From Patellaria atrata CBS 101060 (Eukaryota): DNA of 64,000 nucleotides. Under the pieces are notes generated by a model, which was given only the letters and a program-made list of their open reading frames with translations, was not told the DNA's origin and made no database searches. The position numbers were made by a program, and so were the translations under genes. The DNA is taken from the NCBI GenBank assembly GCA_010093705.1, contig MU006095.1, forward strand, positions 620,001 through 684,000, written 5' to 3'. Each line of letters starts with the position of its first letter. The first letter of the stretch is position 1. Below, piece after piece: positions 1 through 33,346 of this stretch.

Positions 1-983
1 CAAGCTTTGCAACGCAGGTCTGGCATCTCATTCTGTTCCAAGGCATCTTGTACGGGCTCGGATGGGTAATATGTTACATTCCGTTCCTCATCATGATCAA
101 CGAATGGTTCGACAAACGACGTGGTCTTGCATACGGGATAATTTTTGGAGCATCTGGTATCAGCGGTCTAATTCTTCCCTTTGCCTTGGAGACTCTTCTG
201 CATAAATATGGATTTCGCAGCACATTACGAATGTTCGCTGTTAGTGTCGTTGTGGTTAGCAGTCCTGCTTGGTTTCTAATAAAACCGCGTCGCTCACCAA
301 AATCCACACTTCAAGCCGGACCGTACGAGACCGAAAAGAGCAGTAATCATTGGAGATTCCTCCGTAACCCATACTTTTATCCCTTCGTTTTCGCTGTCCT
401 GCTTCAAGGATTTGCCTTTTTCCTCCCTAACATATTCCTTCCGTCGTATGCAATGGAAATGGGTCTTTCCGCGTCTTCTGCTGACATCTTACTTTCTATC
501 ACAGCATTGGCACAAGTTCCAGGTCAAATATTCAACGGTCACTTTTCTGATAAGACCAATGAGCATCTCCCCTCATTTGTATCTTGCCTAGTGTCCGGTT
601 TCGCGGCCCTTCTTCTATGGGGGCCGGCAAAGGATTTTATGGTTCTGGCGGTGTTTTCCCTTGTTTGGGGTGCATTCGCGGCTAGTTATTCGGTTTTGTG
701 GACACAAATCTCCAAAAAGCTCTCATCAGGCCCAGAGGAAGCAATGACTATATATGCGGTCTTATCTTTCGAGCGAGGTATTGCAAATGTTCTGGCAGGA
801 CCTATCAGCGCAATACTAATCACGGAAGAGGTCAACATAAAAGAATATGGACTGGCAAAGTATAAGAGCATCGTGCTATTTACAGCTATTTCCCTTTTAC
901 TCGGGAGTTTAGCAGGTGTAACGTGGATATTCGATCGTCGGAGAAAGGCAAAGCACCATACTAGAACACTGGGAAGCTTTTAG
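1..983 (+). CDS. MFS transporter, monocarboxylate-porter (MCT/Mch)-like; 5' end outside window
   Basis: Frame is open from nt 3 (SFATQVWHLILFQGILYGLG...). Contains 'EWFDKRRGLAYGIIFGASG', typical of fungal MCT-like MFS proteins, and many hydrophobic helices; stop at 983. Confidence 0.88.
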   Translation, partial: SFATQVWHLILFQGILYGLGWVICYIPFLIMINEWFDKRRGLAYGIIFGASGISGLILPFALETLLHKYGFRSTLRMFAVSVVVVSSPAWFLIKPRRSPKSTLQAGPYETEKSSNHWRFLRNPYFYPFVFAVLLQGFAFFLPNIFLPSYAMEMGLSASSADILLSITALAQVPGQIFNGHFSDKTNEHLPSFVSCLVSGFAALLLWGPAKDFMVLAVFSLVWGAFAASYSVLWTQISKKLSSGPEEAMTIYAVLSFERGIANVLAGPISAILITEEVNIKEYGLAKYKSIVLFTAISLLLGSLAGVTWIFDRRRKAKHHTRTLGSF

Positions 984-1494
984 TCAATTACCCTAGGTAT
1001 GGATATACCTTGTCAGACTAGCTCTTTGTCTTGTCACCGCGGCTTGAAAGCAGCACCTTAAAATCAACTCTCGAGATTAGACGTACCACTTTCGTTCTTA
1101 TTCGAATCATGGCTTATACAGGCGCAAGTTAGAGCGGATTGATCGATTGGCAAGCATGACGAAGTAACTCCAGAAACCACCGTGCCCCCGTGGCCGATCA
1201 TCTGGTGCCCCGTAGTCCTTATTCGTTAGCAAAAAATACGGAGCGCAGAACGGTCAGCTAGAGGATGGCCATTTTGTGCGTGGAATGTCCTACTAAAGAG
1301 TATAGTAAAACCTCCCGAGTCACCAGACTGAGAAGGTTGGAATGCAAACTGAAAACGCCCTATACTTTTAGCAAAAGAAATCGTAATCATCATTTTAATC
1401 TATGAGTGAGAACAATTTGTATACCGCCCAACCCATCTCTTCGAGGTCTTCCCTGTGGATGAGCATGATGGATCCATGTTTCTAAGAATACGGA

Positions 1495-1900
1495 GCCAAG
1501 GCTTTGTCATCTAGATCATTAGATTTGTCGGAGGGGTCATATCCCCGGTTACAGAATGAATCTTAAAAGATTTCTTAGATGTCGGCTATTCCTAGTCGAG
1601 GAATGCTCCCTTCTTATCTGCGCCGGTTATCTTGTTGCGCTATGAGATATCTGCATGACAACCACATCCGTCGCCACGACATCAAACCTCAGGTCCAACA
1701 AGAAGAGCAAAATCGTTAATAGAGCTGAACTAATACCCGAATGCACCTGTTAACGGGGATTAAGTTTACCTCACCAACTTCGGCATTGGTTGTGACTGGA
1801 CGAGCTTCGGGCAGAGCGGATTCACTAAGCGCATCAAGAAATACTTCCTCCGATGTCTGGTCCCAAGCGTGCTTATTCTTAGAGATTATGCTCCGTTTTA
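1495..1900 (+). pseudogene. Degraded protein kinase relic
   Basis: Kinase motifs in the correct order but in different frames: MRYLHDNHIRRHDIKPQ (1642-1692, catalytic loop), VYLTNFGI (from 1764; DFG reads NFG), RNTSSDVWSQACLFLEIM (~1838-1890, subdomain IX). Confidence 0.7.
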
Positions 1901-2500
1901 CTCCACTTAGAAGTACACCAGCAGTATTGCTCTACATGAATATAAACGAATAGCTCAAGGGAATTGTAAGTCTGAAATTCAATCACAATTATATACCACA
2001 GATGCTCAGACGTATTAACTCTACTAGCCATCCATTATCTGTCAACAAAAAGCAATCAACACCACTCATACTTGTATATTTGGCAAAACGAAGGCTGGAT
2101 GCGTAAGGCTGGGACCCCAACATCACCGCACCCGCCATTCGAAGCCTTATTAGTAAGGTTCTCGCTCAACTGGAGCTCTGAATCGGCTGGGTGGCCTTTT
2201 ATCAAGCTCAAATATTACCAGGTATCCCTTCAATTCTTTAGTTTACGCCTTACATTTCGCAGCGATATCAGATGCTCGAAAAGTGAAAGTGCTGACCCTC
2301 TCTATTGAAAGGAGATTTATGATTCGAGCTAGTTCAAAGCGAATAGATTAACTACATTAGCGCATGCATAATATCAAGGATGGATGCTCTCCTTCTCGTA
2401 GTACCAGGACCCAAAACGTATTACTTCTTTTTCTCTCATATATGCCGTACATATATATATCCTACAACACCCCAACTGTGCTGATACTCAAATTCTAAAA

Positions 2501-3564
2501 ATGACCAAAACGCACGACGAGACGTAATCTAGTTCACAACTTCCCGAGCTTTCGGTTGCCTGGATCCACAATACCGAACTTGTCGAGGTTCCGCACCGCG
2601 CAAGAAACTTACTTGAAAATTACGCTCAAGTGCCTAGAAACCATGTTATGTATCACATAAACAAAGTGGTACGTCCCGACCACAATCATGCAATTATACT
2701 ACATATTCAGAACTAAGAGCGATCTAGAGAGCGCAAGCTTTGGAAATAGTACAATTACCATAAACCCTTGGGTGCTTGGCCAAATACTGATGAAATCCAA
2801 GTATCCGTATCCATGTATCGGCCACTATCGCTTTCTAGACATCCAGATTGTCAAATCGCCAGTGTATGAAGAGTTAGTGTCTCGTCTGAGCAAGGGAGAA
2901 CGATTACTCGACGTTGGATGCTGTATTGGACAGGAATTGAGACAATTGGTACGATTCAGAAAAGGGTGCATTGCATATTTATGCAAGCTCGGAACGTGAC
3001 GGCTGATGGCCATGAAGGTATCGGATGGAGTCAATTCGGAGAATCTCTATGGCATTGACCTTTATGAAACATTTTTCGATATTGGATATGCGCTTTTCCC
3101 AAGACCACGACACGTTTCGAGGCACATTTCTTTCGGGGGATATGTTTCAACCCACCGCCACTACCTTGTCGAAACTTGAGAGTTCGATGGATTTGATTTG
3201 GACCTGCAATGTTCTGCATTTGTTTACTTGGGAGAAACAATGTGCTGCTCTAGTTTTCATGCTAAGAGCGTTGAACGATTCTCCAAATACAATGATAGCG
3301 GGGAGATTCATGGGACATGAGAACCCAGGAGAGTACAACTACAGCTTTCGGGGTGAGGATGTGTCCATTTATCGGCACAATGATGAATCGTTCAAGAAGC
3401 TGCTTCGAGAGGTAACTGGGGGGTTGCCGGCGGGTTGGGAACTCAATGTTGAGGCTCATGATTGGATTGAGACATTGGAGCTTCGAACACAGGGTAGAGA
3501 CGATTCCACGTGGACGCTGGAGGTCAAGTTTGTTGCTCGCAAAGCGGGGACACACATGTGGTGA
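2501..3564 (+). pseudogene. SAM-dependent methyltransferase (fungal secondary-metabolite type), disrupted
   Basis: The spliced model reads ...ARNLLENYAQVP...HINKV/RAQALEI/YPYPCIGHYRFLD...RLLDVGCCIGQELRQL/VSDGVNSENLYGIDL... There is an in-frame TAA at 2525-2527 (codon 9) and a frameshift at ~3097-3100 (GYALF then QDHDTF in another frame). Confidence 0.8.
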
Positions 3565-3968
3565 AAACTGCTGGCACAATCCGATATCTGAGAGACTTAT
3601 ATAGACTGGAAAACCAAAATGGGAAATATTGAGCACCTATCAGGAAAATGAGAAGATGCTTGAGGCAAACACTATGATAGACCGAAAATTAGCAAAAAAC
3701 TACTCCGTGAGTGCATTTATTACTGACTGACCTGTACCATGAGTCTAGTGTGGCTGAACCAAGCTGCAATTATCAGGTCACATTTGAATAGAGAGAATAT
3801 GGACAGCATGTTGTAGATGGGAAGGCATATGAATTTGGAGCTATAGTTGCAGTTCTAATAGACCAAACAGATTTGTCGCCTCCTATCCTTTAACCACATC
3901 CCTGCCAGAAGTCCCCCATCCTCCCACCTCCCGAAACTTCCCCCCTAATCTTCTGCTCTAAAAGTAGC

Positions 3969-4190
3969 TTCTGTTCAACCACCAAGTTAGAGAGACCTTT
4001 TTTGAATACAACTTTACTCACAATTGGCGTTGATGTGAACAATACGGCCCTTAGTGTTAGAGGCATGGCTGCCGAAGGCACGCTGGTTGGCGACCTCCTC
4101 AGCGGAGAGTCCCTCAGGGATGACGGCAGCTTGATCGACAGCATTGACTGGGGGCCAGACGGCTTTCCAGGGTTGAGTGGTTGGAGCCAT
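3969..4190 (-). CDS. 56-aa microprotein MAPTTQPWKAVWPPVNAVDQAAVIPEGLSAEEVANQRAFGSHASNTKGRIVHINAN, unknown function
   Basis: ATG at 4190 in CAAACAATGG context, TATATAA at 4301-4295, C/A-rich leader, and codons biased to GCC/GTC/AAC/GAG. A 51-nt intron at 4021-3971 (GTGAGT...CTAAC...CAG) splits the stop codon T|AA. Confidence 0.75.
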
Positions 4191-4294
4191 TGTTTGGATT
4201 GGTTTGAAAGTGGTGATTGAAGTTTTGGAAAGTGTTATTGTGAGCTGTGGGAGCGTGATGAGGAAGGTTCTATCTTCCGTCTCAACTCTGATAC

Positions 4295-4301
4295 TTATAT
4301 A
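4295..4301 (-). promoter_or_regulatory. TATA box of microprotein gene
   Basis: TATATAA on the minus strand ~105 nt upstream of ATG 4190, followed by a CA/CT-rich leader. Confidence 0.55.
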
Positions 4302-4925
4302 TCGATTAAGGGAGCCCAAAGTTTGGAAATATTATTATATTGTGGGACTGCGAATTCTGCTCGAACTTGCTCATGGAGGAGCAAGTATTTTCTTGCAGCT
4401 GCAACTCCATGCATCTGAATGTTTCCCCAAGATCTGAGGACAGTGATAGGAACATGCCCTGGAGTAGACTTGCATGATCGTCCCTATCAGCTCTTATCTT
4501 AACCTTGCGGGGTTGATCAGCTGGCACGAGGCAGTATAATCATCTACAATATTTTGCTCTCTTTGAGAGATAGCATGGATTTGGACAACCACGATCACTA
4601 TCGATATCTGCAGGAGCGGCAGATTGGCCTTTCAACTGGACAAAACAGCACATAGTGCAATAGCTATAGGAAGGGGAAGCGGAAATATGCTCTAACATGC
4701 TCAGAATTGAATAACTAACTCAAAGGTTTTATGAACAGAGAGTTGGGGAACTCCGTCTTGTCTTCCCCGGGTGATTTCTTTTTCCAAATCTGTAAGGTAT
4801 ACCAAATTATAGACCACGAAGGCCCCCCCCTCAAGGGAACAGATGATATCCCCTTTAACCTTTGCGTATCCGAAAAGAAAATATTCCGTACTCTTTGTGA
4901 AAACATTCAGTTGAACACTTACAAG

Positions 4926-5876
4926 ATGAGCGAAGCGGTTTTGGGCTCGATCCGATATGTCAACAAGAACGAATCCACTGACCCCTGTGAGAAGGGCTTC
5001 ATCCTCCACTATGCCGCTCCACCAGGGTTTCCACAGAACAACTTCAGCATCGAATCCTACAAAGGGATCAAGATACACAACCTGAGGACAGCGAATCTAG
5101 CTTGGGACGAACATGGTCCTAAGATAGCTTCAATCAATAGCAATGGGATGGCACCAGAAAAGTTCGATGATGACGATTGGATTGAGAAAGTCTATCTGCC
5201 AGAGCTACACAGATCGATTTGCAAAGCTCTCGGTGGAAAGGACGTCACCGTCTTTGATTGGATGCTGAGGAAAAGAGCGGTGTCATTTCCGCAAAGAAAT
5301 GTGGGAGAAAAGAATGAAGACCAGCCACAGCCTTCGCTGTCAGCGCATATTGGTGAGTTAGATTTCCTTCACACGAAATAGCCCGGTTGACCGATGGTAG
5401 ATTATACGACGGGGGAGCTTGATGGCAGAGTGGACCGGTATTTTGGGAAGGAAAGAGAACGCCTTAGCAATCGACGTTACCAAGTTATCAAGTCAGTCCC
5501 CCGTCAGGTTGGCAATTCACCGTGAGAGGTTACATTACTGATCATTCGCAGTGTATGGAAGCCACTTGAAGGCCCATGCCGTGACTTCCCAATGGCATAT
5601 TGCGACCCTAAAAGTGTCGACCGCGAAAAAGACCTTTATATGGTTGATGAAGTCTTTCCTACCGTAGCTAATGAGGTCTTCCAAGTTCATTACAACCCAA
5701 AGCATAAGTGGTACTGGGTACGTGATCAGCTGGATTCGGAGATCACAATCTTCCAAGCGTATGATACGGAGAAGGCGCAGGAGTTGGCTGTTCCTTACTG
5801 CTCCTTCGATCTTGGTGCTGCGGGCTCAGGTATTCCTCGACAAAGCATTGAAGTTAGGGCGTTTGTATTTTATTGA
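4926..5876 (+). CDS. AsaB/CmcJ-like (GA4-desaturase/NvfI-related) Fe-dependent oxygenase, 3 exons
   Basis: Family motifs 'VFDWMLRKR', 'AHI/D' (HxD across intron 5353-5400), 'NVWKPL..P..DFPMAYCD', 'YNPKHKWYW' and C-terminal 'RQSIEVRAFV'. The expected distal 'PH' reads 'PY'. Confidence 0.85.
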
Positions 5877-6600
5877 CGAGATGATTGTTGGGTGAGGAGA
5901 TCAGTCCCTTTTCAATGAATCAAGTCCAGTACGGTTATACGAGTGAGATTTTATGATCTATTAACCTCACGAAAGATTGTATAAAGTTATCTTGTAGTCC
6001 TAGAACTGAACTAGAACTCTTACGGCAGCGGCGTGTGCCAAGAAACCAATGCGGACGCGGACGGGACGGGTCGCACAGAAGACTAGAACTAGTAAGGCAG
6101 AACTACCTTAGTATTAGTTCTACGTCCGCACTGTAGTTCTATGTACAGAGTAGATTAATAATAACGTGCGCAAAGCTTAATTACTTATTCTATAGGCTCT
6201 GGCGGTTAAAACAAAATCAGCTACTTGTAATTTCCGGCGGTGATGAAGTTAAAGTTATTAGGTTAGGGAGCTGCCGAGCTGGTCACAGGGGGTTTAGCGA
6301 AAAGGGGTGAACCAGCAAAGTAGGTAGTGATAGTTTAAACAAAACTTACAGGACAATACAATAGTCTATGCCTAGGGAACGATTTTCCCTAACCTCACGT
6401 CTAAGGTAGAGAGAGTCTAAGTACTACTTTGTAGCAAAATAGAATCTAGCAGCGCCACTGCCAATGTCCTCAAAGCTTGTACCGACCCAAGATTAGAACT
6501 ATCGAGGTGAAACTACACTTTTATCCGATGCTTCCAGCAGTCAGCAGTAGTTCTAGTGAGGTATTATTGCGAGCGTTACAGCACTTTGTAACAATTTATA

Positions 6601-7190
6601 TTGCCTCAAGCACCAGAAACCATTCACTCGATCTCACCTTCAAGAATTGTCCCTAGCAGTTTCCATCTGATGGACGTTGACTCTGGTGCTGGTGACTTCG
6701 GGAAAGCTCACCTCGCGGGTTGGATTCCCACTCCACCCAACAGTGCGCCCCTATTTGACCCTCTTTCCATCTCTGCCGCTGCTCTCCAGCGCCTACTCGC
6801 CTCCGGGAAGATCACGAGTGTCCAAATCCTGAACGAGTACTATCGCCAGATTTTGTCCTATAATGGCTATCTCAAAGCGATCTACAAACTTGCACCCGGT
6901 GCCATTGCTCGTGCGGAGCAACTGGATGCTTTAAGAAGGAATGGTACGTTCCTTGGCCCGCTACATGGCATTCCGGTCCTCTTGAAGGACAATATCGGGA
7001 CGGATTCGAGCTTCGAGATGGACACCACCGCTGGGACAATGGCGCTTGTTGGCTCTTTTGCGGTCAGGAACGCGCCGATTGTTGACCGGGTACATGAGTT
7101 ATTCAGTTCCCTTTGCCTCGAGAGCTCGGTTTGACCGTGATTTAGCCAATTGCTGCTGGGGCAATCATTATGGGAAAGTGTACGCTCTCG
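6601..7190 (+). pseudogene. Amidase-signature family gene, N-terminal part only, interrupted by LTR
   Basis: 'LASGKITSVQIL', 'GPLHGIPVLLKDNI', 'TTAG..AL' and, after an intron, 'AAGAIIMGKCTLS'. The next intron runs into an LTR at 7202, and no GGSS signature region follows in the window. Confidence 0.82.
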
Positions 7191-7298
7191 GTGTGTACTA
7201 ATGTTACGGCCATAGGACGAAGGCACAGCATCACCAGTAGAACGGTAGTACGAAGCGACGGAACGGAACAACCATCACGGGACGGGAGGTCACGTGAC

Positions 7299-7620
7299 GT
7301 GATCGGGGTGCTCGACGTGCTCGACATGCACAGGAGCGAGCAGAGCGATCAGAGCGATCAGCGTGATCGGGGTGCTCGACGTGCTCGACATGNNNNNNNN
7401 NNNNNNNNNNNNNNNNNNNNNNNNNNNNNNNNNNNNNNNNNNNNNNNNNNNNNNNNNNNNNNNNNNNNNNNNNNNNNNNNNNNNNNNNNNNNGCGTGATC
7501 GGGGTGCTCGACGTGCTCGACATGCACAGGAGCGAGCAGAGCAATCAGAGCGATCAGCGTGATCGGGGTGCTCGACGTGCTCGACATACACAGGAGCGAG
7601 CAGAGCGAGCAGAGCGATCA
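7299..7620 (+). repeat. 64-bp tandem minisatellite inside LTR, spanning gap
   Basis: Units starting GTGATCGGGGTGCTCGACGTGCTCGACA at 7299, 7363, 7495 and 7559. Confidence 0.92.
7393..7492. other. Assembly gap (100 N)
   Basis: Run of N. Confidence 1.
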
Positions 7621-7975
7621 AACAACAAAATTGACTATGGAGGATAGGAATATTTAAGGACGGTCTTTCCCTCATGTATTTAGATTCTTCGTAGTTATTC
7701 TTACCATCAATCTTACCCATAGATTTGGATGTTACGGTTTTGAACTTGACTTCACTTGTTACGCTGTTTCCATACAGTACGTCTTGTCTCATCGTGAGCA
7801 TTACCCGAAGTCAAGGAGTCAGCAAGTTGTATCGTCAACTTGAAGTGCCTTTGTTATACGTATCCTATCACTTTGCCAAACCTACCTTTGTGGTTGACCA
7901 CGTTAAGTGAGAAGCCAGGCGCGTTTCTAGACTTATCCAGTTCTGTCTCGATAAGTATAGACTCCCGTTGTAACA

Positions 7976-8333
7976 GGTATCAGCTCGAGAGCGTGCTACT
8001 GAGGCTCGTCAGGCTCAACAACAGCTTATTGGCGATATCAGACAGTCACGGCTACGCAATAAGGTATCAAAAGGTGTATTTACTACCACTCAACAGAAGG
8101 AAGTTGTTGTTCTATCTCCATTAAAAGTTCAGGATAGTGGTGAAGGTAGTTCTCGTCCAAAACGCACGCGCAAAGCACCAGCACGATTTTTAGATTTTGA
8201 AACATAGATAGATCTATTTCTTACTATCTAAATAACTATGCTACCAAATTTGAATATAAACGGACTTATGGTTGTTGAGATATTCGTAATTCAAAAGCCA
8301 TACTGTTGGTGGTGATCACCGTGCACGGAGTGT
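7976..8333 (+). mobile_element. 3' end fragment of a Fot1/pogo-like DNA transposon
   Basis: Open frame 7977-8207 ending ...GSSRPKRTRKAPARFLDFET*, which resembles the basic C-terminal tails of fungal pogo-type transposases. It is followed by an AT-rich tail and TIR-like GGTGGTGATCACCGTGCACGGAGTGT (ends 8333). Confidence 0.55.
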
Positions 8334-8577
8334 CCAAGACTTCTAACCTTCTAGAACAGAAATTGATCTGTGCAGCTTTGCCGAGACTTGAGCCGACTGG
8401 AACTAGTTATAATTTTAGGTCGTTTGTATCTTATCAGATCTGTGAGATCGTCACGGACGTATGTAGACTAGTCTTGTTTACATTTAGTCCTTTAATTCAA
8501 TCTACTCTACTTCGCACAGTTCCATATTTAGAAGCAGCCGTGATGGATCAAACTAGACTCAACCTCAGTGGTGGGTG

Positions 8578-9830
8578 CTAGTTGAGAATGGACCCATGAT
8601 AAACACTTCCCCAACTATCAAAAAGGCCATCAGTCCACCCAATAATCATTCCTCGAAGCCCCGGTGAATTGAGGCTTCCCCAACATACCGAACCATGTGT
8701 TTCTTTGTCGGACTTCCGAAACACCCAAACCATATTTGAAATCCCAGGAGGTAGTCTTCCAGCAGTAAAAATACCAAACACAATAAGAATTACAAGGATC
8801 AATACTCCACCAAACATCGTCAACCAGGGCCTTTGCATCTTCACTCCACGGAATTTCCGCCCATGAGCACACCTCAGAAGTATTACATCCATCAACTGAA
8901 AGATTACACTAGCCGAGAGACAGACAATTGTGCCAGTAAGCCAATCTGCTTGTTGACGAGCGGAAAGTTCGATGCATCCAATGCCGTTACTACTGCTACC
9001 GGAAACGGGGTAGATGTCGCAAGTGCCAGGTACGACAACAGCTACAGCAAAATCTCTGAATGCTGGCGAACACCACTTCACTTTCTTATCTGGTCCATGT
9101 TTGCCCTTGACTGCGAATACCAGTCCTATGATTTGTAGGACAACCATGATCAGGAGGAAAACGAAAGCGAACAAGGCAACGACGGCGTGTCTGAGCACAT
9201 CGTTATGACGCGCCTGCGGAATAGCTTCGACTTCTCCTATTGTCGAGACTGTCACGTATCTCCCTTTGGCGGATTCATTAGCTTCGGGGTCTGTTGGCGG
9301 GTCTAAATCTTGGTTCCGATTAGCCGCAGCTCGTGAATTGACAAAGGACAAAGCTTACCTATTTGAACTACAGGGGCTGAGGATGGTACGGAGCTGCTTT
9401 TCCTTCCGAGCTCTGATATAGCCTTGCAAAATGCTTGAATAAGATTTCGAAAACCATGCTTTTCAACGATAAGGACAATCATCTGCAGCATTGCCCCAAC
9501 ATCTAATATGAGCGTTAAAGGCATCCATACCAGGACCATCTCAGCTTTGAGGGAAGTGCCGTCATACGATTGGATAGTCAAGGCGATACCCAACACCGCA
9601 AGCCCAAGAGCTAGATATTGCGCGGATTCCCATCGGACTGCCCGGATGATGCATGCAGGGAGATGGAAGAGTAAGAGAAAGAGGGCATATAACCAAGGGA
9701 TCAATGCACCTCCTGGATCTGGTCGCAAATAAGTCTGCATGCAATTGAGCTTCAACGAATATGAATCATCAAACAGTGAATATTGGAGATTGCGAACGAT
9801 AGTGGTGTTAGCTGAAAATTCGCATGACAT
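8578..9830 (-). CDS. Hypothetical multi-pass membrane protein, 2 exons
   Basis: ORFs 9303-9917 (ATG 9830, MSCEFSANTT...) and 8578-9351 joined by an intron at ~9358-9309 (GTAAGC...GCTAAT...AAG); several hydrophobic segments. Confidence 0.75.
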
Positions 9831-10404
9831 GTTTAGTGGTAGATAAAGAAAATGGAATTCTAACAGAGTTTTGAGGTATTTTAGAGCAGCTTGACGTGAC
9901 AAGTAATGTTCTTGCAATTAAGTTCCAGCGAAAGTGAGGCTGTTGGGCTTCAGGTAGAGCTATTGTCACTAGGCGACAGATGCATTAAATATCTTCAGCT
10001 AGAATGGGGCATTGGAAGTAGCTAAGTTTCAAGGCAACAGTCATAGCCGCGAGGCTGAAAGTCTGTATGCAAGGCTATCTTCACAAATTCAGCGATGTTC
10101 GCAGACTTGGTTGCGCCAACTTTACGGAGTGAGAATTGAGGATCGAATAAACGACAGACTAATACAGTTTGCTGTGCCCCGCTTAGGCAATACAAGGTGG
10201 TTTAAGATATATAAAACTCTAAAAGAGGTCATTCTAAAGGTTTGCGGTGAGGCATTTAGGCGACAAGGCTGTAGGAAGAAAAGCTTTATCAATGTGTGCA
10301 GGAAATGGATGGAACGTTGCGACGAGGGAGGTATAATGAAGACGATAATGTAGCTGCCAGATATCATCTAATTTAATACTGAGTATTTCAAGGGAACAAT
10401 ATCA

Positions 10405-10947
10405 TATTAGATACGGCCACAAGTTGTGAGAACAGGCAATTGACGAGTGGGGGAGAGAAGGAAGCCACTCGGCACAACCACGGGGGAAAGTCAGTGCTAC
10501 GGGAGTCACGTGACTTGGACGCGGTGGACGTGGTGGACGCAGTGGACGTTGGACGGGCAGTACGGCCAGCACGTCCAAACACTCAAATAGAACTCTGAGG
10601 AGGAATACTTAAGAAAGCTCCTTTGCGCATGTATTTAGATTCTTCGTAGTTCTTTTTACTAACATATCTTACTACAAGATTGGATGTTACGGTCTTTGAC
10701 AACTCACCTTTGTCTTACTGTGTTCGTACAGTATCACTTGTCTCTACTGTGAAGCCTTTGAGAGAGAGTTAGGGGGAAGCAAATTATATCATTAACTTGA
10801 AGTGCAAACCTTTACACGTTCTATCACAAAGCGGAAACCAAACCCTTTTCGTAAGAGAAGGAGGTGCCTCCCGAGTGAGAAACCTTGCGCGTTTTTATAT
10901 TTGTCGTGTTCCGACTAGACAGGTATAAACTCCCGCCATTTTTAACA
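10405..10947 (+). mobile_element. Diverged LTR related to 7202-7975
   Basis: Collinear similarity to the first LTR (GTCACGTGAC, internal GGACG-type repeats, shared U5-like blocks). Termini TATTAG...TTAACA are consistent with a transition-mutated TGTTAG...CTAACA. Confidence 0.7.
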
Positions 10948-13208: not shown

Positions 13209-14832
13209 TCAGAGTGGTTCTTCCTCCTCCTCTTCTTCTTTGTCAAGCGTAATCTCATGTTTTCCCTTCTCCTCCGTTGCTCCAGTCATAGTGTCTTGTA
13301 CAACCTTCATCATCTCGGCTTTGTATCTGCATTTGGAAGTACAATTAGCACGTTTCTTATAAACCCGAGAGATCAAAGGCCCAGATAGAGCTAGGGTTTT
13401 TTCACATCATTGGACGTACGTACTCTTGTGGACAAAACATCTTGCACAAAGTGGTCATATCGTCGTACACACTGTGCGGGGTTAACAATCTATTCAAGAT
13501 GCCTAAATGGTCTAGGGAACACAAACATCTGTCGCTGTTGAGATCCAGGAATATAGATCGTATTTCCAATGTTGAAGGTCAATGAGTAGAGTAAGTTCCG
13601 TGCGTCCCAATCCTCAACAGGTTCCGATACAGGGAAGTGTTTCTTATAACTTCTAATATAGGCTTTATTGCTCAATCGATGCCTCGGGGCTCGCCAGTTG
13701 CCAGTGTCATACTCATTGTGTCCATAGAAAGAGCAAACATCGAAAACAAATGCTTCCCCTGTCTTTGCATCCATCGCGGTATTGCCATCCCAGCAATCCC
13801 CGTGAACGAGGCAAGGCTTTAGCGTACGACCGTCGGACTGAAGCGGCAAGAGAAGACGTGGAACGACTTTCTCAAGCGTCAATTTGCAAACAACGTCGAA
13901 TTCTGGCCATTTGAGGATTGGCTTTGCTAATTCCATAACATGGCTAAGATGCCGCCGGAATAGTACACACCAGGAATCTTCCCAAGTGTTGACAGCCTGG
14001 GCAATTCGAGCATGACAGGTAGCCATGTGGAAGCCAAACTTCCCGGTAGGAGAAACGGAGCGTTGATGTAAATCTGCAAGTCCTGCGGCCAACTTGATGG
14101 GATCCGCAGGCTTACTGCGTTAACAACCTACTGTAAATTTGCTTTGACTCCGTTCCATCATGCGCACCAACTGTGCCGAACACGACTTGTGGGAGATCGC
14201 CTGGAAATTGAAGGAAAGAAACGACCAGGCCTTCACATAAGTGAATCCTGAAGTTCCCAGGGGATATCAGAGAATGGGACACACCTGTTCTCCAACATCT
14301 CGGAATTCAGCAAGAAGAAAATACGTCTCGTGCTCGGCTTGTTCGTATTTGCCCCATGCGTATGGCTTCGGTACAAAAGAGGGTGAAAGTGCATGGATAG
14401 CTTTGAGAGATTCATATTCACCCTCGCACATGTGTCGTCCAGTCTCACCGAGGGACACTACCTATGAAAATCGCAAGACATTAGACCTCTCCACATTGTC
14501 ATGATCGTAGGGACCAAACCTTCAAGAAATAGTACTGTGTCTCTCTCGAGGGCAATCGAACCAGGACCTTCGCCGTCTTGCCCCATAAGGATTCTCCATA
14601 ATTAAGGGCCCGTACAACTTCAGTTCCAGGGATAGGAAAAGCTGGAATATGAGTCAATCACAGTGTTTGAATCATGTAGATTAGCGTTCATACCCGCAAT
14701 GACGCTTTGATCTACTTCATAGGACCCACCAGCCTTGGGCGGCAAAAAGGGTTCGGATGGAGTCTTTTCTACCTCTCTTTGTGCCTTACTAATAGCGATG
14801 TTCGATATAGTGTGCTCTATTTCGACAATCAT
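13209..14832 (-). CDS. Fructosamine/ribulosamine-3-kinase family protein, multi-exon
   Basis: 'YFLK', 'MCEGEYESLKAI', 'SPTGKFGFH..TC', 'KPCLVHGDCWDGN', 'FD..SFYGHNEYD.GNW'. Terminal exons VYDDMTTLCK... and ...EEEEEEPL* (stop 13209). Confidence 0.88.
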
Positions 14833-15345: not shown

Positions 15346-18300
15346 ATGGTTCGTTCGCAGGAAATCGTGCCCTACCATTCTCGATTTGCTATAATACTAG
15401 AGAGGCATGATATAAAAAGTAGTATGCTCATCCTAACTTGTGTAGTTTTCAAGACTGAGACTACGGTCAGATCCAGTCCTCGACTGCAATGATGACGAAG
15501 GTTTGGCCAATGTCCCTAACGAGGCTGAGCGACGGCGGTCCGAAAGCTCCTCCAGAATGCTATCGACAGTTCCTACGCGTCTGAAAAGCAACATCCTCCA
15601 GAGAAGCGCTTCATCGGCGTGCAATACGAGCACTTTTGCCCTTAAGGATATTCGCAAAAGCCACATCCCAGAACGGTGCTCTGATGGGCTCGGATTGCAG
15701 CTTGTATTTGATCCACCTTCCCATACTGGGGACATCATATTTGTCCATGGCCTTGGTGGTAGCGCTTGGAAAACCTGGAGTTGGAACCGGGACACGGCCA
15801 ACTTCTGGCCCGGCTGGCTGTCGGACGAAGAAGACTTATCAAGTTTCAGGACATTTACTTTCGGATACGACTCTGACTGGAAGGGCGCCGGGACGAACCT
15901 TAATATATCCGATTTCTCGAAAGACCTCCTACTTCAGATGCTGACGTTTAGGAGTGATGATCGCCCTACCATTGGAAGTAAGGATATTATTTTCGTAGCC
16001 CATTCGATGGGCGGGTTGCTCGTCAAGAGAGCCTACCTTCTGGCGAAACTGGATATCCAGTATTCCGATATAGTTTCCAAATTTCTTGGGATCATCTTCC
16101 TCGGAACTCCACATCGAGGGGCGCAATCGGCAGCCATGCTGAACAATATACTGGCAGCCCTTCCACTGGCTCCGCCACCGAAAGCGTACCTTGCCGATCT
16201 CCAAGTTACCTCGAGTGCGCTACACGAGATTAACGAACAGTTTCGTCACCACTGTCAAGAGTTAGCATTGATATCATATTATGAAACAGAAAAGACGACT
16301 CTGGGTATGAAAGACGTTCTTATTGTAGGAAAGGAGTCTGCTGTGTTACAATATCCAAAAGAGCTTTCAAGTCCCCTATATGCTAATCACCATACTATAT
16401 GCAAGTTCCAAAGCCGACTAGACTCGAATTACGTCAAAGTGAGGGATACTATCGCCTACCTAGCAAAGCGGTCGAGTTCTAGAGGTGGGACTATAGTCAA
16501 CACAGTGGAAGACAATCAACAGATCGAGGCGATATTGGGCATTCACGACGTCGTAGAAGAGGACCTCAAATCAGCACATAATCGAGTAATGGATGGCACC
16601 TGCCAATGGTTGACGCATAAACCAGACTTTATCAAATGGCAAGCAACGGAAGGAATGGAGGATTGTGCCCGAATATTCTGGCTGTTCGGCCTACCGGCGA
16701 CTGGGAAAACGACGCTCACTAGCGTAGTAATAGATCATCTTAAGACTCATACTGGCAGATGTCAATACCATTTCTTTTCCACTGGACACCAGATGAAACG
16801 AACTGCTGCGTACTGTCTCCGGTCGATTGCTGCGCAACTAGCAAGGACAAACCTTGAGTTCAGAGAAGCGTTGTTTGCCTTCCATGCAGGAACGGGAATA
16901 AAGTTCGCTTCGCAAGATCAGAAATTTGAAACGATATGGGAAAAGATTTTTGAGGGGATTATTTTCAAGACAGCGTTTCAGACACCTCTATTTTGGATTC
17001 TTGATGCTATCGACGAAGCGGATGCCTACTCCGTGTTGATTAGTCGCCTCATGAAAATACAGTCAGTGACCCCAATCAGGGTCTTTCTGAGTAGCAGACC
17101 TACAGAGATTGTCCGAACACTAGGAACGCACACTCTATCCATCACACCACTATTTTTATCTGATCGAGACACCGAGAACGATATCCGTACCTATGTCTAC
17201 AACACCATGCGCAATATTCTTCCTGCTAATGAACAGGTTCAAAAGAAAATCTCCGATCAGGTACTCAAAAAGGCATCAGGATCATTTCTCTGGGTCCGGT
17301 TAGCTCTGGATTCGCTTAGAGGATCATGGTACACACAACACGATATCCAAAAATCCTTGACAGAATTACCAGCCGATATGGCATCGCTGTACGAACAAAT
17401 GCTAGAGAAGATCATCTCACAACCTTCCCCAAGGTCCCGACTATTAGCAAAGAGGATTCTCACTTGGGTCGCCTGTAGCTGGAGGCCCCTTCGTATTGAC
17501 GAGCTAATAACTGCGCTCGAACCAGAATTCAGTGATTTTGTGAACTTTGAGGACACGGTTACGCAAATATGTGGCAACTTTGTTTCGATTGAGGAAGGAC
17601 GTCTCTCCCTTATCCACGCGACCGCTCGTTCGTTCCTAACCAGCGAAGGAGAAGGAGGTCCCAGATACATTAAAGTTCGACAGTCTCATAGCGATATGGC
17701 CGTGCGATGCTTAACATACCTTTCGAAAGACGATTGGCGGCGCTTGTTTCGAGCATTCTCTCCAACTGATTATGCAGAGGCTGGCCACTTACACCGGCCG
17801 AATCGGCTCCTCCTAGCGGAACAAGGTTTCCCGTTATTAGGGTATTCGGTATGTTATTGGGCATATCATGTATCAAACTCCCCCACCTTTTCAGCGGAGC
17901 TCACGGAAGCTTTGAAGACCTTCTTTTCCAGGTATTGCTTGTCTTGGATTGAGGCAATTGCTTTGTCGGCAAATCTACGCTACTTGATAAAATCCGCGAA
18001 GTATATAAAGGCTTACGCGAAAAGAAAAAGATTGGCAAAATCACGACCCGAATCCTCACCAGTTCTCGGAAGTCTGAAGGCCGTACCTGAGGATGATCCA
18101 AAATGGCTCCAATCTTGGGCTACTGATATCATCCGCGTAGTAGGTAAATTTGGGCCAATTTTGATATCCAACCCTGCCTCGATCTATGGGGATATTCCTC
18201 CTTTCTGCCCGCGAAACTCGATGATTTGGCAAACGTACGGCGAATTTGTACCGAATCAACTTTATGTCAGTGGATTGCCAACAGACGGTTGGGATGACCG

Positions 18301-20290
18301 TCTCGCAAGTATATCAGTCGGTGATGATCGAATGATCTCTAAAGTTCTTGCTACGGATGCTTATTTCATTATCCTAATCAGTAGCGTCGGTAGTATTACT
18401 ATCTGGCATGCTGAAACCTGTGAGCAAGCTAGAGCGATCGAACTGAACGAGTACACGCCAATCATTGCTTTGAACAAAATCGGGACATTATTAGCTGCAG
18501 CAAGTCTTACAAGTTACACTATCTGGGAAGTGTCCACCGGCCGTTTGGTGTCTCGGATTCCGAAAACTACAGAAACACGCACTACAACTGTCGCATTTAA
18601 TGATGATAGTTCCCAATTCACAACTTGTTACGATGATTGTTCCATATTTAGCTACGATGTTTACACATCCATCGAAATTTCGAGACAGATCTTCACGCCT
18701 CCGCAAGTAGAGTATCATAGCTGTCCGAAGGTAATGAGTATTAGTCCTGACCACACGACTGTCGCCATTGGCTGGCGCGGAAAGCCTCCACTCATATGGC
18801 ATTTCAAAGCCACTCCGTACCAGCCCGTCAAAATACGCAAAGCCCGCCAGATGAGTGACTCGCTTTGCGCGCCGGAATCATACCTTTGGCGGCCCGATGG
18901 AAGCTCATTGTTTATCCTCTGTCAGGATACAAATGTTATTGAGTGGCAATTGTACGATGATCAACAAATCGCGTACCCTCACCTAAACCCACGAGAGTTT
19001 GGAATCAGTCGCGATGGTACCCTATTGCTCACTTGTGACAATATCGGAACGATCAGCGTTTGGAGTTTTCCAAAGTTATCTCTTGTATACCAGTTGAAGA
19101 GTGAGAACGAATTCATTCGAGATATCACCTTCAGCCCAGATAACCAGCGCATATATGATGTACGATGCTTTATGTGCAATATCTGGGAGCCTGATGTTTT
19201 GGTTCGCCCCGATGAGCAGGACCTTGAAGATCACTCCAGTGTCGACGAGGTTGCCTCAGGCAGCTATCTTTCAAATGAGCCCGCCATAGCGCATGCAGAC
19301 ACTACGCAAACCGTAGTGACTGCAATATCTGTGAGCACTACGGACGACTATTACTGTTGTGGAAGCGATGATGGAATGGTCATAATCCACGAAGCTACCT
19401 ATGGAAAAGCCATTCGGAAGGTCTACGGCCATCCGCCTTCCAGCGCTGTACTCCAACTCTGCTGGTCTGAATCAGGAAGATTTATGGTATCAAGCGACGA
19501 CTCCGCGAGAGTCATCGCGAAGAGACTTGAGGTAAAAGAAAAAGATAAATGGGGTGTTTTTCCCGTCCTGGACATACGCGCTCCCGACTCTGTTCAACAG
19601 TTTCTCTTCAGTTCCGATGAGAGGTACCTTCTTGTTTCCACGTCCTCAACAGATCACATATATGATCTTCGCACAAAGAAACAAGTTTGCTCCAGGCTCT
19701 GGGGCACGAGAAATACTCGGCGCTGGGTACAAAGCCCGCCCGGTACAAACTTGCTCATATCTGTTGGTCCATGTGATATCCAAATATGCAATTGGTCAAC
19801 ACTAGAGACCGAGTCTTTTGCGGACCTTATATCGGAGACGGACAGAGATAGGGGAAAATTAGCTGTCGTATGGACTGCTTGCACGACCGCACAGGGGCAC
19901 ATTCTGTATGGAACGCTTCCTACTGCCAATATTCGAGGCAGTGTGACTTGTCTGTCTCACTCTGGCCTACATCTTGAGTACATTGACTTTCCCCGGAGCT
20001 TCGATTCATCCCTGAGCTCCTTTGCCTCAGAATGTAATCCGAATCTTGCACATCGAGTGAAGAGGCTGATTGGGATTTACGAAGGCAGAGTTGTCTATCT
20101 AGATCATGACCATCGATTATGCACATGGGATCTTAGTATCGATGGACATGAATTGAAGAGGCATTTTGCTTTACCGAGAGATTGGCTGGATGTCAATTCT
20201 CTAGACCTTGCGGTCGTTAACCGATATGGTACCATGTTTTGCCCAAGGGATGGACATGTAGCTATAGTTAGGAACGGTATTAGGCTTTGA
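15346..20290 (+). CDS. Fungal NLR-like STAND protein: alpha/beta-hydrolase (SesB-like) - NACHT - WD40
   Basis: 1595-aa ORF with 'IIFVHGLGG', nucleophile elbow 'AHSMGG', 'FLGTPHRG', 'NHHTICKF', Walker A 'GLPATGKT', Walker B 'WILDAIDE', 'ASGSFLWV' and degenerate WD repeats. Likely start ATG 15346 plus intron 15349-15445 (GTTCGT...CTAAC...TAG), which is in frame. Confidence 0.9.
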
Positions 20291-29404: not shown

Positions 29405-32400
29405 CTAATACCTGCGCTCATAACCGTCGTCACCGTAGCCCCTAGGTTCGCCATAGCCTCTCCACTCACCATACTCATCCCTTCCTCCATGCTCCCGCCT
29501 CTCACCATACTCATCCCTTCCTCCATGCTCCCGCCTCTCACCATAGCTCCCTCCAGAGCCGTATTCATTGTGCTGACCATAGCCTCCGCCAGACCCATAC
29601 TCTTCACGCCGGCCGTAACCGCTGGATCCATATTCCTGGAGTCCGCCATACTCCTCACGAGAGCCATATCCTCCACTAGAACCATACTCCTGTTGATGCG
29701 AGCCATATCCGCCCCCAGAACTATATTCCTGGCGGCCGGTATATCCATCGCCGGAACCATACTCTTGCTGCTCCGAATGATACTCGCGTTCTCCACCACC
29801 ATAACCTGGGCGTTCACCGTAGCCGGTGCGCTCACCCTCTCCTAAGCTACCTCCGTACTTTTCACGTTTCTTGCGTTCTTTCTCAGCCTTCTTGCGTGCC
29901 TTTTTCTCGTAATCATCATCAGAGTCATCATCGTCATCTTCATCGTCATCGTCATCGCGACGGCCGTATTTCTTCTTCTGCTCTTTTTCGCGCTTCTTGC
30001 GCTCTTTTTCAGCCTTCTTACGTTGCTTTTTCTCGTAATCTTCATCAGAGTCATCTTCTTTGCCGTACTTGCTGCCGTAGTGCCTAGTTCGATTAGAATA
30101 TTGTCCTAATAGCTATGATAACAGCACTTACCTGGATTCGGAAGAGTAGTACTCGCCGCTACGAGTGAAACCTTCAGTCTTCTCCTCAGACTGCCATTGA
30201 CCACCAGGGCGTTCGTATCTTGTCTCCTCACGACGCTCATATCCTCCTCCATATGAGCTTTCATGAACTTCAGTCTTATACCCGTAGCCTGTAGTGCTTG
30301 ATCTGCCATCCTGCTCATATCGAGAGTACTCCTCACTCCTTGCACCACCAGGGTATTCAGTGGTCTTGTACTCTGCCTGACCGTACCGGTCATCACGTTC
30401 ACGCGAAGCCTTTCGGTGTCCAGTTTCCTGATAACTGGAGGAATAGGAGCCGTCTTTGTTATACCCTTCTTTTTTAGACTTTTTCTTCTCACTCTTGTCA
30501 TCTTGAAATGCCCCACCGAGAAGACTGGCCCCAACACCACCAACTAGGCCACCGACAAGACCACCGAGAGCTCCACCACCAACCGCTTCGCTAGCTGCCT
30601 TACTTACTTCGTGTACAGCCTGCTTTTCTGCTTTACTGCCACCAAGATTTCCGAGAACATTGCCACCAATAGCACCAGAGCTCAATGCGGTATTCATATT
30701 AGGCATACCAAGGGGCTTACCACATCCATGGCCTTTGTCGTGGACACCTTCTTTATGATTGCGGCCTTGCTCAACACCATTACGGCTTAACTTATCCCGA
30801 AGATCGTCTTTGGCTCGTTCGCTCTTATCATGCCACCAGTCTTCGACAATACGAAACATAAGCTGGCGGCCATCGCTAGCACCGTCATCGCCGTAGTTAC
30901 GTAGTGCTGGGTGATGGAAAACGCCGTTAATGATGCGACTTAGGGTGCGGTCAATATCAACACGATCGTTATCCCAGCATTCAACGATCTGCGGTACAAC
31001 CCATTTGAGAACTTGAGACGCGATCTTTCCGGCTGGCTCATTCAAGACATTACTGAAGTGATCTTTAGAAAGCATAGAATGTGTGGGATCAGAGCAACTA
31101 TCATCATGGAAGACAATATGCTGCTTTTCACGGCTGCTCTGTATGATTTCTGAGGACCCCGTGGCTAGTTCGTTTTTCACCTGCCGGATGATTGGAAGAA
31201 CATAGGGTGCAAGAAGCGAAAATACAAAGATGTTGACCTGTTCTTGTAACTGCTCGAGCAACTCCGGCAGGACGGGAATTTGCTCGATAGCTTCTGTGAT
31301 AGAGTGCATAATTTCATCGTGAAATTCTAAGATAGGGTAGATCTGCTTCGTAATCTCTTGCATTTGACGGGTGAATTCTTCGGGTTCACGGGGCGTAATA
31401 TGCATGTTCTGCATCTGGTGTGCCTGAGCGTTTTGCTGAAGCTCGTCGGCCTTTCCAGCTTCATCTTTCCCACCAAAGAGGCCCTCGGGAAGTTTATCGA
31501 GAAGATCCTTAAGTGCGCTATTGTTTGGAGCGTTCTCTGAGGCTGCTATAGTGCCTTCGAGTTCTTGGACCTCGGATTGCGTAGCTTTATCGGAGATTTC
31601 TCCCATGACAGAGTGTAGGAAGTCAACACCACCGAAGGTACCGGTGACAAGAGGCCAAATTGGACCGCGAGCGCCTCGAACTTCAACCTGCGTACGACGG
31701 CCTACGTGGGGAAAGACATCTCTTTCACCGAGTTCAATCAATGCTAGCTCAGTATAATTGGAGTGAGCGGAATAATCTAATCCGTCAGTCTTATTCCGGA
31801 TGTTTAAAGATTTAGACCTTACCTTCCAAACAATGGCAACCAGTACCAAGAAGTCTCAATGCTTCATAAAGATCTGCCTTGTTCTTCGACCTATTGTAAC
31901 GGCGACCAAGCTGGATAGACCGAGTGAACAGGTTGCGGACAAGACCAGCAGAAGTGGTAATTCCATAATCCTCTGAAGCGATGTATGTTTTAAGGCCGGT
32001 CCGCTCGTCGATGCTGAGTTCGCGGTGTTCGTCAATAGGGCCTCGCAAGCGTCGATCATACTGACGGGCATCGATGTTGTCGGCATAGTCTTTAGGGTTA
32101 TCGATATGTTCTTCTGGTCTATAGGAAGTTCGTATTATCAGCCATAGTTCTCCACATAAAGAGTGTTTCATACCTATAGCAGCCGAGTCTTTCGTGAGTG
32201 ACTTCGAACTCGCCAGTACCGTACCCAAAGCTCATAAAGCTCAGCACCCATAACAGAATACGAATAGCTTCGGCGCTGACCATCTTGAGTGTTCCCACCT
32301 AAGAGCAGTATTAGCATTGGAACCGACATTCAAAGGTATTGGTTGGATTTTACATCAACAGCTTGAGAATAGTCACGGAGCCAGTTACCAAAGTAAACAC

Positions 32401-32617
32401 GCTTGACATCCATCTTATTGAATTTCTTATTTGTAGTTCTCGAGATGAGCAAAGTGAGTAAGGTATCCTCGATATCGCCATGACGCCAATTTGAGCCTTC
32501 AATCTTAGCTGTCGAGGCAATATTTCCGGCACCAAAGGCATGGGTAGGCTTAGCCCAGAGGATGAAGAGGAGCAAGCATGGTAGAAGAAGGGATGGGGAG
32601 GGCCTCAGATCAGGCAT
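29405..32617 (-). CDS. het-c: HET-C family protein (Neurospora het-c / Aspergillus TinC homologue), multi-exon
   Basis: Signal peptide then 'AFGAGNIAS', 'WRHGDIED', 'KRVYFGNWLRDYSQAVDV', 'YRPEEHIDNPKDY', 'AHSNYTEL', 'PLVTGTFGG.DF', 'DPTHSMLSKDHFSN'. Gly/Tyr-rich last exon ends ...GYERRY* at 29405. Confidence 0.93.
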
Positions 32618-33346
32618 TCTCCTTAGCAGTTTGAAGGTAAAGCGTATTGAGTCTAAGACTAGGTAGTCAACAAAAGTTTTATGGACGTGGTTGAGAGTGA
32701 ATTAGAAATGCCTTGAAGGGTACAGGTTTGAGTAGTTATAGCAAGGTGTAGCAGTAGAGGGGTGATTTGGGATTTAGTGGGGGTGTCTCAGGTTCAGCTG
32801 CTGTCGTCACGGAGATCCCACAACTGGTCAAAGCTTCTGCAGTTAAAGCAGGATTTGCCTGTGATAATCCAAGAAATACCAAGCCGAGTTTTAAACCAAC
32901 CTCACTTCATCCTCTGATGTATGTTTGTTCAGCAAGTTCTCTGTACAGCTTAAGATACAGTTGAACAGCTTTTTACAAGTCAATGTCCCCTCCAATAGAA
33001 CCTCACATATATGTTAGAGTCATAATCAGAACTATAGGACTTAGTACACAAGCACAATTTCATGCAATTGGGTCCTATTGCGATAAGGGTATGAGATAAG
33101 GTCCCTTGATGATGAGTATGTCGCACCGAGCAGTTATGGAGAAAAGCCATTTCCAATATCCGTGAAAGAGCAAAGTTGTGACTCCACGAAGTAAAACTTC
33201 TCTGAGCTAGCCCTCTTCAAGAAATATGAAGATGATTCCAATCCTTGAAATGTTCCGGGATCAGATCCACTAATGAATGCAGGAGACCTTGAATAGTAGG
33301 TCCCCCAATGTTGCACCACCTAGGGAATAGTAGACCGATCATATCT

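What the first reader, a model, noticed from the sequence alone, without database searches (positions are those of the whole stretch)
1..7190. Candidate peptide-modification (RiPP-like) locus: microprotein flanked by methyltransferase, Fe-oxygenase, MFS and amidase
Seen: a well-formed 56-aa gene lies between a SAM methyltransferase (convergent) and an AsaB/CmcJ-like oxygenase (divergent, ~735 bp shared upstream region), with an MFS transporter and an amidase on either side and no PKS/NRPS/terpene core in the window. Known: described fungal RiPP classes use MSDIN, borosin or Kex2-repeat/DUF3328 precursors, and this peptide has no signal peptide, no KR repeats and matches none of them. Inference: it could be the precursor or small partner protein of an undescribed cluster type, with an acidic leader-like middle (PEGLSAEEVA) and a candidate C-terminal core (FGSHASNTKGRIVHINAN). 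The backbone enzyme could also simply lie left of the window.
Basis: partly seen in the sequence, partly recalled or inferred. Interest (0 to 1): 0.8.

Follow-up and report, generated by a model that had tools for sequence, protein, structure and literature searches.

The report
Fungal peptide–oxygenase gene pair
A tiny fungal gene for a 56-residue peptide is repeatedly found next to one particular iron-dependent oxygenase across many ascomycete fungi, and its relatives come in repeated leader-plus-core form, which points to an undescribed way in which fungi make modified peptides, perhaps under copper control.

Summary
The 56-aa gene (4023-4190, minus strand) is real. It has 29 homologues, and pN/pS is 0.08-0.10 in two motifs against 0.82 in the linker. 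The conserved unit is two genes, not five: the peptide plus a CmcJ/NvfI (AsaB-type) Fe/alpha-ketoglutarate oxygenase. The oxygenase lies beside it in 18 of 21 metagenome loci (the other 3 end too early), in 5 of 5 named pairs checked, and in a second copy in this genome. The window's methyltransferase, MFS and amidase recur in 0 of 21 loci. The methyltransferase and amidase are broken, and this oxygenase copy has lost an iron ligand. Distant relatives are tandem repeats of QPWKxxWP-linker-core, some with other cores; one such gene sits beside a different AsaB-type oxygenase. There is no signal peptide, Kex2 site or DUF3328. Best reading (0.6): a precursor peptide and maturase of an undescribed cytosolic fungal RiPP class. 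Ferric reductase, Ctr and copper-fist neighbours and enriched CuRE-like motifs suggest copper regulation. No product, binding or expression is shown. The window copy is probably decaying; the C8 copy looks intact.

The parts
4023..4190 (-). Peptide gene, 56 aa: QPWKxxWP motif (res 6-13), variable linker, short acidic helix, conserved NQR[AS][FY]G-SHASNT-KG[RK][IV]VH block, variable 2-5 aa tail
   Evidence: AlphaFold2 mean pLDDT 64, pTM 0.30, one helix 30-39
3969..4022 (-). Stop codon T|AA split by a predicted 51-nt intron (3971-4021); position conserved in relatives
   Evidence: not confirmed by RNA
4191..4925 (.). Shared divergent promoter with six TGCTC cores (4356, 4366, 4386, 4553, 4686, 4696), three of them T.TGCTC, resembling Mac1 copper-response elements
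   Evidence: AfMac1 motif TGTGCTCA from PMC7593903
4926..5876 (+). CmcJ/NvfI (AsaB-type) Fe/alpha-ketoglutarate oxygenase, exons 4926-5352, 5401-5491, 5552-5876. HxD kept, distal His replaced by Tyr (5796-5798); probably inactive in this copy
2501..3564 (+). Methyltransferase pseudogene (SAM motif DVGCCIG; family assignment recalled, Pfam gave no hit). Stop at codon 9, frameshift near 3100. Local neighbour, not part of the conserved unit
1..983 (+). 3' part of an apparently intact MFS transporter that starts about 490 bp left of the window. Not conserved with the pair
6670..7190 (+). 5' fragment of an amidase gene cut off by a repeat. Not conserved with the pair
7195..8334 (.). High-copy repeat with a 94-nt direct repeat and an assembly gap that interrupts the amidase
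   Evidence: (summed depth 80,000-190,000 vs 320-450 in flanks; not a copy number)

Best explanation
A two-gene cassette for a ribosomally made, post-translationally modified peptide. Shown: the peptide and one clade of CmcJ/NvfI-fold Fe/alpha-ketoglutarate oxygenases are inherited as a pair, mostly head-to-head on one promoter, and neither has a signal peptide. Inferred: both are made in the cytosol; the oxygenase binds the QPWKxxWP motif and the acidic helix as a leader; it oxidises the segment between the conserved [FY]G and KG flanks (SHASNT, THASNT or THAPNS), most likely by beta-hydroxylating or cross-linking the near-invariant His or Asn. General proteases then release the core, and lineage-specific neighbours (DMATS prenyltransferase, P450, methyltransferase, hydrolase, MFS) may tailor or export it. 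Also inferred: expression under a Mac1-type copper factor, with a product used in metal capture or competition. The window copy is a decaying paralogue; the copy at G000:C8 is the likely working one.
For: Oxygenase match in 18 of 21 metagenome loci, which are 12 distinct loci; the 3 misses hold only 30-438 bases upstream. Consecutive GenBank accessions in 5 of 5 named pairs checked, plus a sixth among cluster members. 13 of 29 peptide hits share a longest-contig length with an oxygenase hit (counted by eye). A second pair sits among housekeeping genes in this genome, while 3 other AsaB-type matches of the genome have no such peptide within about 1.5 kb. Peptide and oxygenase distances correlate (Mantel rho 0.38, p 0.0002, n=20). 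pN/pS is 0.10 (leader), 0.08 (core) and 0.82 (linker), n=15. Tandem leader-core repeats and forms with the same leader but other cores exist. L035 pairs such an other-core peptide with an oxygenase only 29% identical to this clade, in convergent orientation. Fe/2OG enzymes are known to hydroxylate bacterial RiPP precursors: CinX, ThoJ/TsaJ, CanE, CzlI (PMC11575548, passage). Copper link: ferric reductase in 4 of 4 long loci, Ctr in 2 of 4, copper-fist factor in 1 of 4. T[TGA]TGCTC occurs 16 times in 10 of 11 promoters against 3.5-5.1 expected.
Against: No product, modification or expression is shown. No protease or transporter is conserved with the pair. The characterised relatives of the oxygenase found here (NvfI, CTB9) act on small molecules. 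The core is highly conserved within each type rather than hypervariable, which also fits a binding motif. Adjacency to an oxygenase could not be tested for the tandem-repeat forms; the other-core link rests on one locus (L035), and a search for relatives of its oxygenase found none. The five named pairs were picked because both genes had been hit in that species. Both trees have low support (4 and 0 of 17 starred branches), and kinship alone gives correlated distances. Neither copy in this genome has a ferric reductase nearby, the four long loci may share ancestry, and 12 motif patterns were tried.
Confidence: 0.6

Rival explanations
1. The peptide is the oxygenase's substrate but is not cut. 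It is a modified, largely disordered microprotein (for example a His-containing metal-binding or signalling peptide), and the repeats only raise valency.
For: No conserved protease. Core nearly invariant with two His. Low-confidence, mostly unstructured model. Copper-related neighbours and motifs.
Against: Same leader with unrelated cores and variable repeat number is typical of precursors. Prenyltransferase and P450 neighbours in some loci.
Confidence: 0.15
2. The peptide is a small binding partner (activator, chaperone or inhibitor) of an oxygenase that acts on a small molecule, such as a prenylated product of the neighbouring DMATS.
For: NvfI and CTB9 act on small molecules. Related DMATS genes (55% identical) lie beside the pair in L016 and L033, with a fragment in L026. 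Strict conservation of two short motifs.
Against: The C8 pair and several others have no substrate-making enzyme nearby. Tandem and core-only repeats (P0140, P0145) are hard to explain for a stoichiometric subunit.
Confidence: 0.15
3. Two functionally separate copper-regulated genes are held together only by a shared bidirectional promoter.
For: Head-to-head layout in 11 of 12 distinct loci and enriched CuRE-like motifs.
Against: L035 is convergent, with a different oxygenase clade and a different core. The promoters align poorly (36% mean column identity) while the pair persists in changing neighbourhoods.
Confidence: 0.07
4. The first reader's five-gene cluster (MFS, methyltransferase, peptide, oxygenase, amidase) is one working pathway.
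For: The genes are adjacent. Unrelated methyltransferase and MFS genes lie beside the pair in L017 and L020.
Against: 0 of 21 loci carry the window's methyltransferase, MFS or amidase. The methyltransferase and amidase are broken and the oxygenase lacks a ligand.
Confidence: 0.03

Closest known systems
Dikaritins and epichloecyclins (ustiloxin, phomopsin, asperipin, victorin)
   Same: Ascomycete precursors with repeated cores beside an oxidative enzyme (PMC9233826 section 4 part 1).
   Different: No signal peptide, no KR/RR sites flanking the cores, no DUF3328. The repeat includes its own QPWKxxWP motif, and the enzyme is a non-heme Fe/alpha-ketoglutarate oxygenase.
MSDIN (amatoxin/phallotoxin) and borosin precursors
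   Same: Short or cytosolic fungal precursors with a leader and a core.
   Different: No MSDIN leader, no prolyl oligopeptidase beside the pair, no fused methyltransferase; found in Ascomycota.
CmcJ/NvfI/AsaB-type oxygenases (NF041278; NvfI, CTB9)
   Same: Family score 176-183 bits against a cut-off of 80; fold TM 0.75-0.82 to NvfI and CTB9; HxD...H and RxS motifs.
   Different: NvfI is a meroterpenoid endoperoxidase (PMC6030086 passages) and CTB9 acts on pre-cercosporin (PDB titles). This clade is about 23-25% identical to NvfI and is tied to a peptide gene, not to a PKS or terpene cluster.
Bacterial RiPP Fe/2OG hydroxylases (CinX, ThoJ/TsaJ, CanE, CzlI)
   Same: Fe/2OG enzymes that hydroxylate Asp, His or Phe on a precursor peptide (PMC11575548 passage).
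   Different: They are tailoring steps in larger bacterial clusters and only distantly alike in fold (ThoJ E 1.8e-3). Here the oxygenase is the only conserved enzyme.
Copper-responsive crm isocyanide cluster of Aspergillus fumigatus
   Same: MacA-regulated cluster with a Ctr gene and poorly conserved accessory genes (PMC9381783 passages).
   Different: Its core is an isocyanide synthase; no peptide precursor.

Membership tests
Dikaritin / Kex2-processed repeat RiPP | N-terminal signal peptide | tested here: not met
   Highest 11-residue hydropathy in the first 30 aa is -0.5 to 0.95 in 8 of 8 peptides tested; a crude test, SignalP not available
Dikaritin / Kex2-processed repeat RiPP | KR/RR sites delimiting the cores | tested here: not met
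   0 KR/RR in the window peptide and in 10 of 14 peptides examined; in the other four they lie outside or after the cores
Dikaritin / Kex2-processed repeat RiPP | Clustered DUF3328 (UstY) oxidase | tested here: not met
   No DUF3328 among the neighbour ORFs scanned with Pfam (a selection of ORFs, not all); none recognised around either genome copy
Dikaritin / Kex2-processed repeat RiPP | Repeated core sequences | tested here: met
   Met in relatives (2-4 units), not in the window copy
MSDIN family | MSDIN leader, Pro-flanked core, POP | tested here: not met
   Alignments; no POP among scanned neighbours
Borosins | Core fused to, or split from, an alpha-N-methyltransferase | tested here: not met
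   Peptides of 55-250 aa without an enzyme domain; no methyltransferase conserved with the pair
RiPP (general) | Gene-encoded precursor clustered with a modifying enzyme | tested here: met
RiPP (general) | Enzyme modifies the peptide and a mature product is released | not testable with these tools
   Needs biochemistry and MS
CmcJ/NvfI oxygenase family (NF041278) | Family HMM score and DSBH fold | tested here: met
   Window copy 126.9 bits over a cut-off of 80; orthologue fold
CmcJ/NvfI oxygenase family (NF041278) | Complete HxD...H iron triad | tested here: not met
   Window copy has Tyr at the distal His; His in 21 of 21 aligned orthologues and in the C8 copy
Mac1 copper regulon | CuRE motifs in the promoter | tested here: inconclusive
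   Enriched 3-5 fold over genomic background; T.TGCTC 20 in 9.2 kb vs 8 in 6 kb upstream of four Ctr matches; the exact AfMac1 motif is not in the window promoter
Mac1 copper regulon | Induction by low copper | not testable with these tools
   No RNA holder listed

The most novel reading that the evidence does not exclude
A widespread, so far unrecognised class of ascomycete RiPPs made in the cytosol. QPWKxxWP is a portable leader read by AsaB/NvfI-type Fe/alpha-ketoglutarate oxygenases, different oxygenase clades go with different cores, and the His-containing type is a copper-regulated peptide chalkophore, a fungal counterpart of methanobactin (comparison recalled).
Probability: 0.25. Interest if true: 0.93.

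Novelty: new variant of a known kind. Interest (0 to 1): 0.8.

Why it matters
Fungal RiPP mining looks for DUF3328, MSDIN or borosin signatures and for signal peptides with Kex2 repeats (PMC12048977 passages). This family has none of them. If the oxygenase modifies the peptide, it adds a fungal RiPP class, gives the CmcJ/NvfI family a peptide substrate, and supplies a searchable leader motif. It would also explain some orphan AsaB-type genes that have no PKS or NRPS nearby. The system is two small genes, so one co-expression experiment can test it. The copper link bears on how filamentous fungi acquire or compete for copper.

Tried and rejected
A longer protein beyond the intron: rejected, because the intron splits or follows the stop codon; database tails such as -CE, -CK and -STFRAED are unspliced or differently spliced models. 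Core synthase left of the window: none in 40 kb. Known family or structure for the peptide: none in Pfam, NCBIfam or PDB; two ESM Atlas searches gave no usable hit, which shows neither novelty nor absence. Prokaryote or virus copies: 0 of 29 pattern matches in viral contigs; 1 of 39 in GTDB genomes passed, a 59-aa frame sharing only the QPWK motif, judged chance. P0157, 1 of the 37 profile hits, is an unrelated repeat protein and was dropped. Further QPWK genes in this genome: only the two known copies matched exactly; the 3 one-mismatch hits are at control level. Relatives of the L035 oxygenase among longer proteins: 0 of 38 candidates, weak evidence. Expression: no RNA holder listed. RIP as the cause of decay: dinucleotide indices over 1-6000 are ordinary and only 6001-7000 is shifted. 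Literature: ten searches, among them the peptide motifs and six locus tags, found no description of this pair. The library lacks most subscription journals, and supplements were not searched.
Full report
Observation. The window is fungal DNA at G000:C7:620001-684000. The small gene reads 56 codons at 4023-4190 on the minus strand. Its stop codon is split, T|AA, by a predicted 51-nt intron. The same arrangement, a T|GT donor two to six codons after the last His, appears in 10 of 14 non-redundant metagenome copies of this type; 3 stop within the exon and the L035 form differs. No PKS or NRPS was seen in the window or the 40 kb to its left.

The gene is real. A homologue search returned 29 of 29 candidates, from Dothideomycetes, Sordariomycetes and metagenomes. 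In an alignment of 34, QPWKxVWP and NQxxxGSHASxTKGxxxH are invariant or nearly so. Across 15 coding sequences pN/pS is 0.10 in the first motif, 0.08 in the second, 0.50 in the acidic stretch and 0.82 in the linker. No Pfam, NCBIfam or PDB match was found. The AlphaFold2 model is low-confidence, with one helix.

The conserved unit is two genes. The genome holds a second peptide gene (80% identical) head-to-head with a second oxygenase on C8, among housekeeping genes. Of 21 metagenome loci fetched with the peptide, 18 have the oxygenase; the other 3 hold 30-438 bases upstream. The 18 collapse to 12 distinct loci: 11 head-to-head (two of them, L029 and L034, damaged by deletions) and one convergent (L035). 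Five of five named pairs checked have consecutive accessions (Polyplosphaeria fusca, Ophiobolus disseminans, Cenococcum geophilum, Lasiosphaeris hirsuta, Cladorrhinum sp. PSN259), as does Cladorrhinum samala among cluster members. These pairs were chosen because both genes had been hit in that species. The genome's three other AsaB-type matches have no such peptide within about 1.5 kb. Peptide and oxygenase distances correlate (rho 0.38, n=20), but the trees are weakly supported and kinship could produce this. The window's methyltransferase, MFS and amidase matched none of the 21 loci and none of five C8 stretches; only four distinct loci are long.

The window copy is decaying. The methyltransferase has a stop at codon 9 and a frameshift near 3100. 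The amidase ends at a high-copy repeat. The oxygenase differs at 8 of 117 near-invariant positions, including the distal His ligand, against 1-3 in six other copies. The peptide is intact. The contigs laid agree with the window but probably are its source data.

Distant relatives look like precursors. A profile search of 1.84 billion representatives gave 37 hits, one of them spurious. Several are tandem repeats of the whole QPWKxxWP-linker-core unit or of the core alone, with THASNT or THAPNS between [YF]G and KG. Others keep QPW but carry different cores (YG-YND-KG, YG-VN-KG) in two to four units. Named ones come from Zymoseptoria brevis, Seiridium cardinale, Cadophora malorum, Cercospora beticola and Pseudocercospora fuligena. 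L035 carries a 109-aa peptide of the other-core type convergent with an oxygenase only 29% identical to the main clade. With 5 family matches in 28.7 Mb, a 4-kb contig would hold one by chance about once in a thousand (my estimate). This is the only context available for the other-core forms, and there is none for the tandem forms. None of 8 peptides tested has a hydrophobic N-terminus, and dibasic sites do not delimit the cores.

The enzyme. Orthologues score 176-183 bits on NF041278, fold confidently (pLDDT 83) and match NvfI and CTB9 with TM 0.75-0.82. They keep HxD...H and RxS. NvfI is an Fe(II)/alpha-ketoglutarate endoperoxidase on a meroterpenoid (PMC6030086, passages). Other Fe/2OG enzymes hydroxylate bacterial RiPP precursors (PMC11575548, passages).

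A copper link. All four long, distinct loci carry a ferric reductase of one subfamily (46-70% identical, in differing positions); two have a Ctr gene, one a copper-fist factor just behind the peptide gene, and two a related DMATS. This genome has 20 ferric-reductase matches in 28.7 Mb, none near either copy. An unbiased k-mer scan of 11 promoters ranked TTTGCTC sixth among 7-mers. T[TGA]TGCTC occurs 16 times in 10 of 11 promoters, against 3.5 and 5.1 expected from two genomic backgrounds, while three control words were not enriched; 12 patterns were tried. Upstream of four Ctr matches T.TGCTC occurs 8 times in 6 kb. AfMac1 binds TGTGCTCA (PMC7593903, passages); a TCTGCTC[A/G] variant in Histoplasma is tentatively ascribed to the high-copper factor AceI (PMC9040751, passages), so the direction of any copper control is open. 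A MacA-regulated cluster with a Ctr gene is known (PMC9381783, passages).

Mechanism. Shown: a coding microprotein with two constrained motifs, fixed linkage to one oxygenase clade, and repeat and other-core relatives. Inferred: the oxygenase recognises QPWKxxWP, oxidises the core (His or Asn hydroxylation or a cross-link), and the core is released by proteases encoded elsewhere (0.6). Rivals: an uncut modified microprotein (0.15), a partner subunit of a small-molecule oxygenase (0.15), co-regulation only (0.07), and the five-gene cluster (0.03).

Comparison and novelty. It works like a multi-core RiPP precursor with its maturase but fails the membership tests for dikaritins, MSDIN and borosins as described in PMC9233826 (abstract and section 4 part 1) and PMC12048977 (passages). 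Ten paper searches found no description of the pair (other papers seen only as listings; supplements not searched; most subscription journals are missing). Verdict: a new variant of a known kind, probably a new fungal RiPP class, testable with two genes. Interest 0.8.

Noticed in passing
L035:1172-1498 (+) and 2021-3020 (-): 109-aa peptide with QPWKAVWPP but a YGREAGEMLYIDG-type core, convergent with a distinct AsaB-type oxygenase; a likely second type of the system.
   Followed up: partly
L034:427-857 and L029:700-1502: Two loci from one metagenome carry deletions in the pair (L034 joins the peptide's 3' half to the last oxygenase exon; L029 lacks the first ~50 oxygenase codons), suggesting frequent loss.
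   Followed up: partly
L016:4818-6059, L033:11833-13197, L026:2991-3161: Related DMATS prenyltransferases (about 55% identical) beside the pair, with a P450 or P450 fragment in two loci; a possible prenylated variant.
   Followed up: partly
L033:10597-11370: Copper-fist transcription factor directly downstream of the peptide gene; a proline-iminopeptidase-like S33 hydrolase lies about 8 kb away (737-1831).
   Followed up: no
window 3969-4022 and homologues: An intron that splits or directly follows the stop codon is conserved; database gene models therefore give the peptides false C-terminal tails.
   Followed up: yes
window 6001-6460: Stretch with short repeats and a raised TpA/ApT index (1.42 in 6001-7000), possibly a RIP-mutated element relic between the oxygenase and the amidase.
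   Followed up: no
window 7195-8334: High-copy repeat with a 94-nt direct repeat around an assembly gap; part of it (7646-7848) is 72% alike to about 10601-10805.
   Followed up: partly
window 15446-20290: 1614-aa single ORF that looks like a hydrolase-NACHT-WD40 fungal NLR (recognised from motifs, recalled).
   Followed up: no
window 30128-32701 (-): HET-C-like gene with a long Gly/Tyr/Glu-rich repetitive tail running to about 29405 (recognised from motifs, recalled).
   Followed up: no
window 8578-9917 (-): Membrane-protein-like ORFs with no Pfam match right of the repeat.
   Followed up: no
window 13490-14119 (-) and G000:C7:604919-605788 (-): Two fructosamine-kinase-like genes about 28 kb apart on either side of the locus (the first by Pfam, the second by motif).
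   Followed up: no
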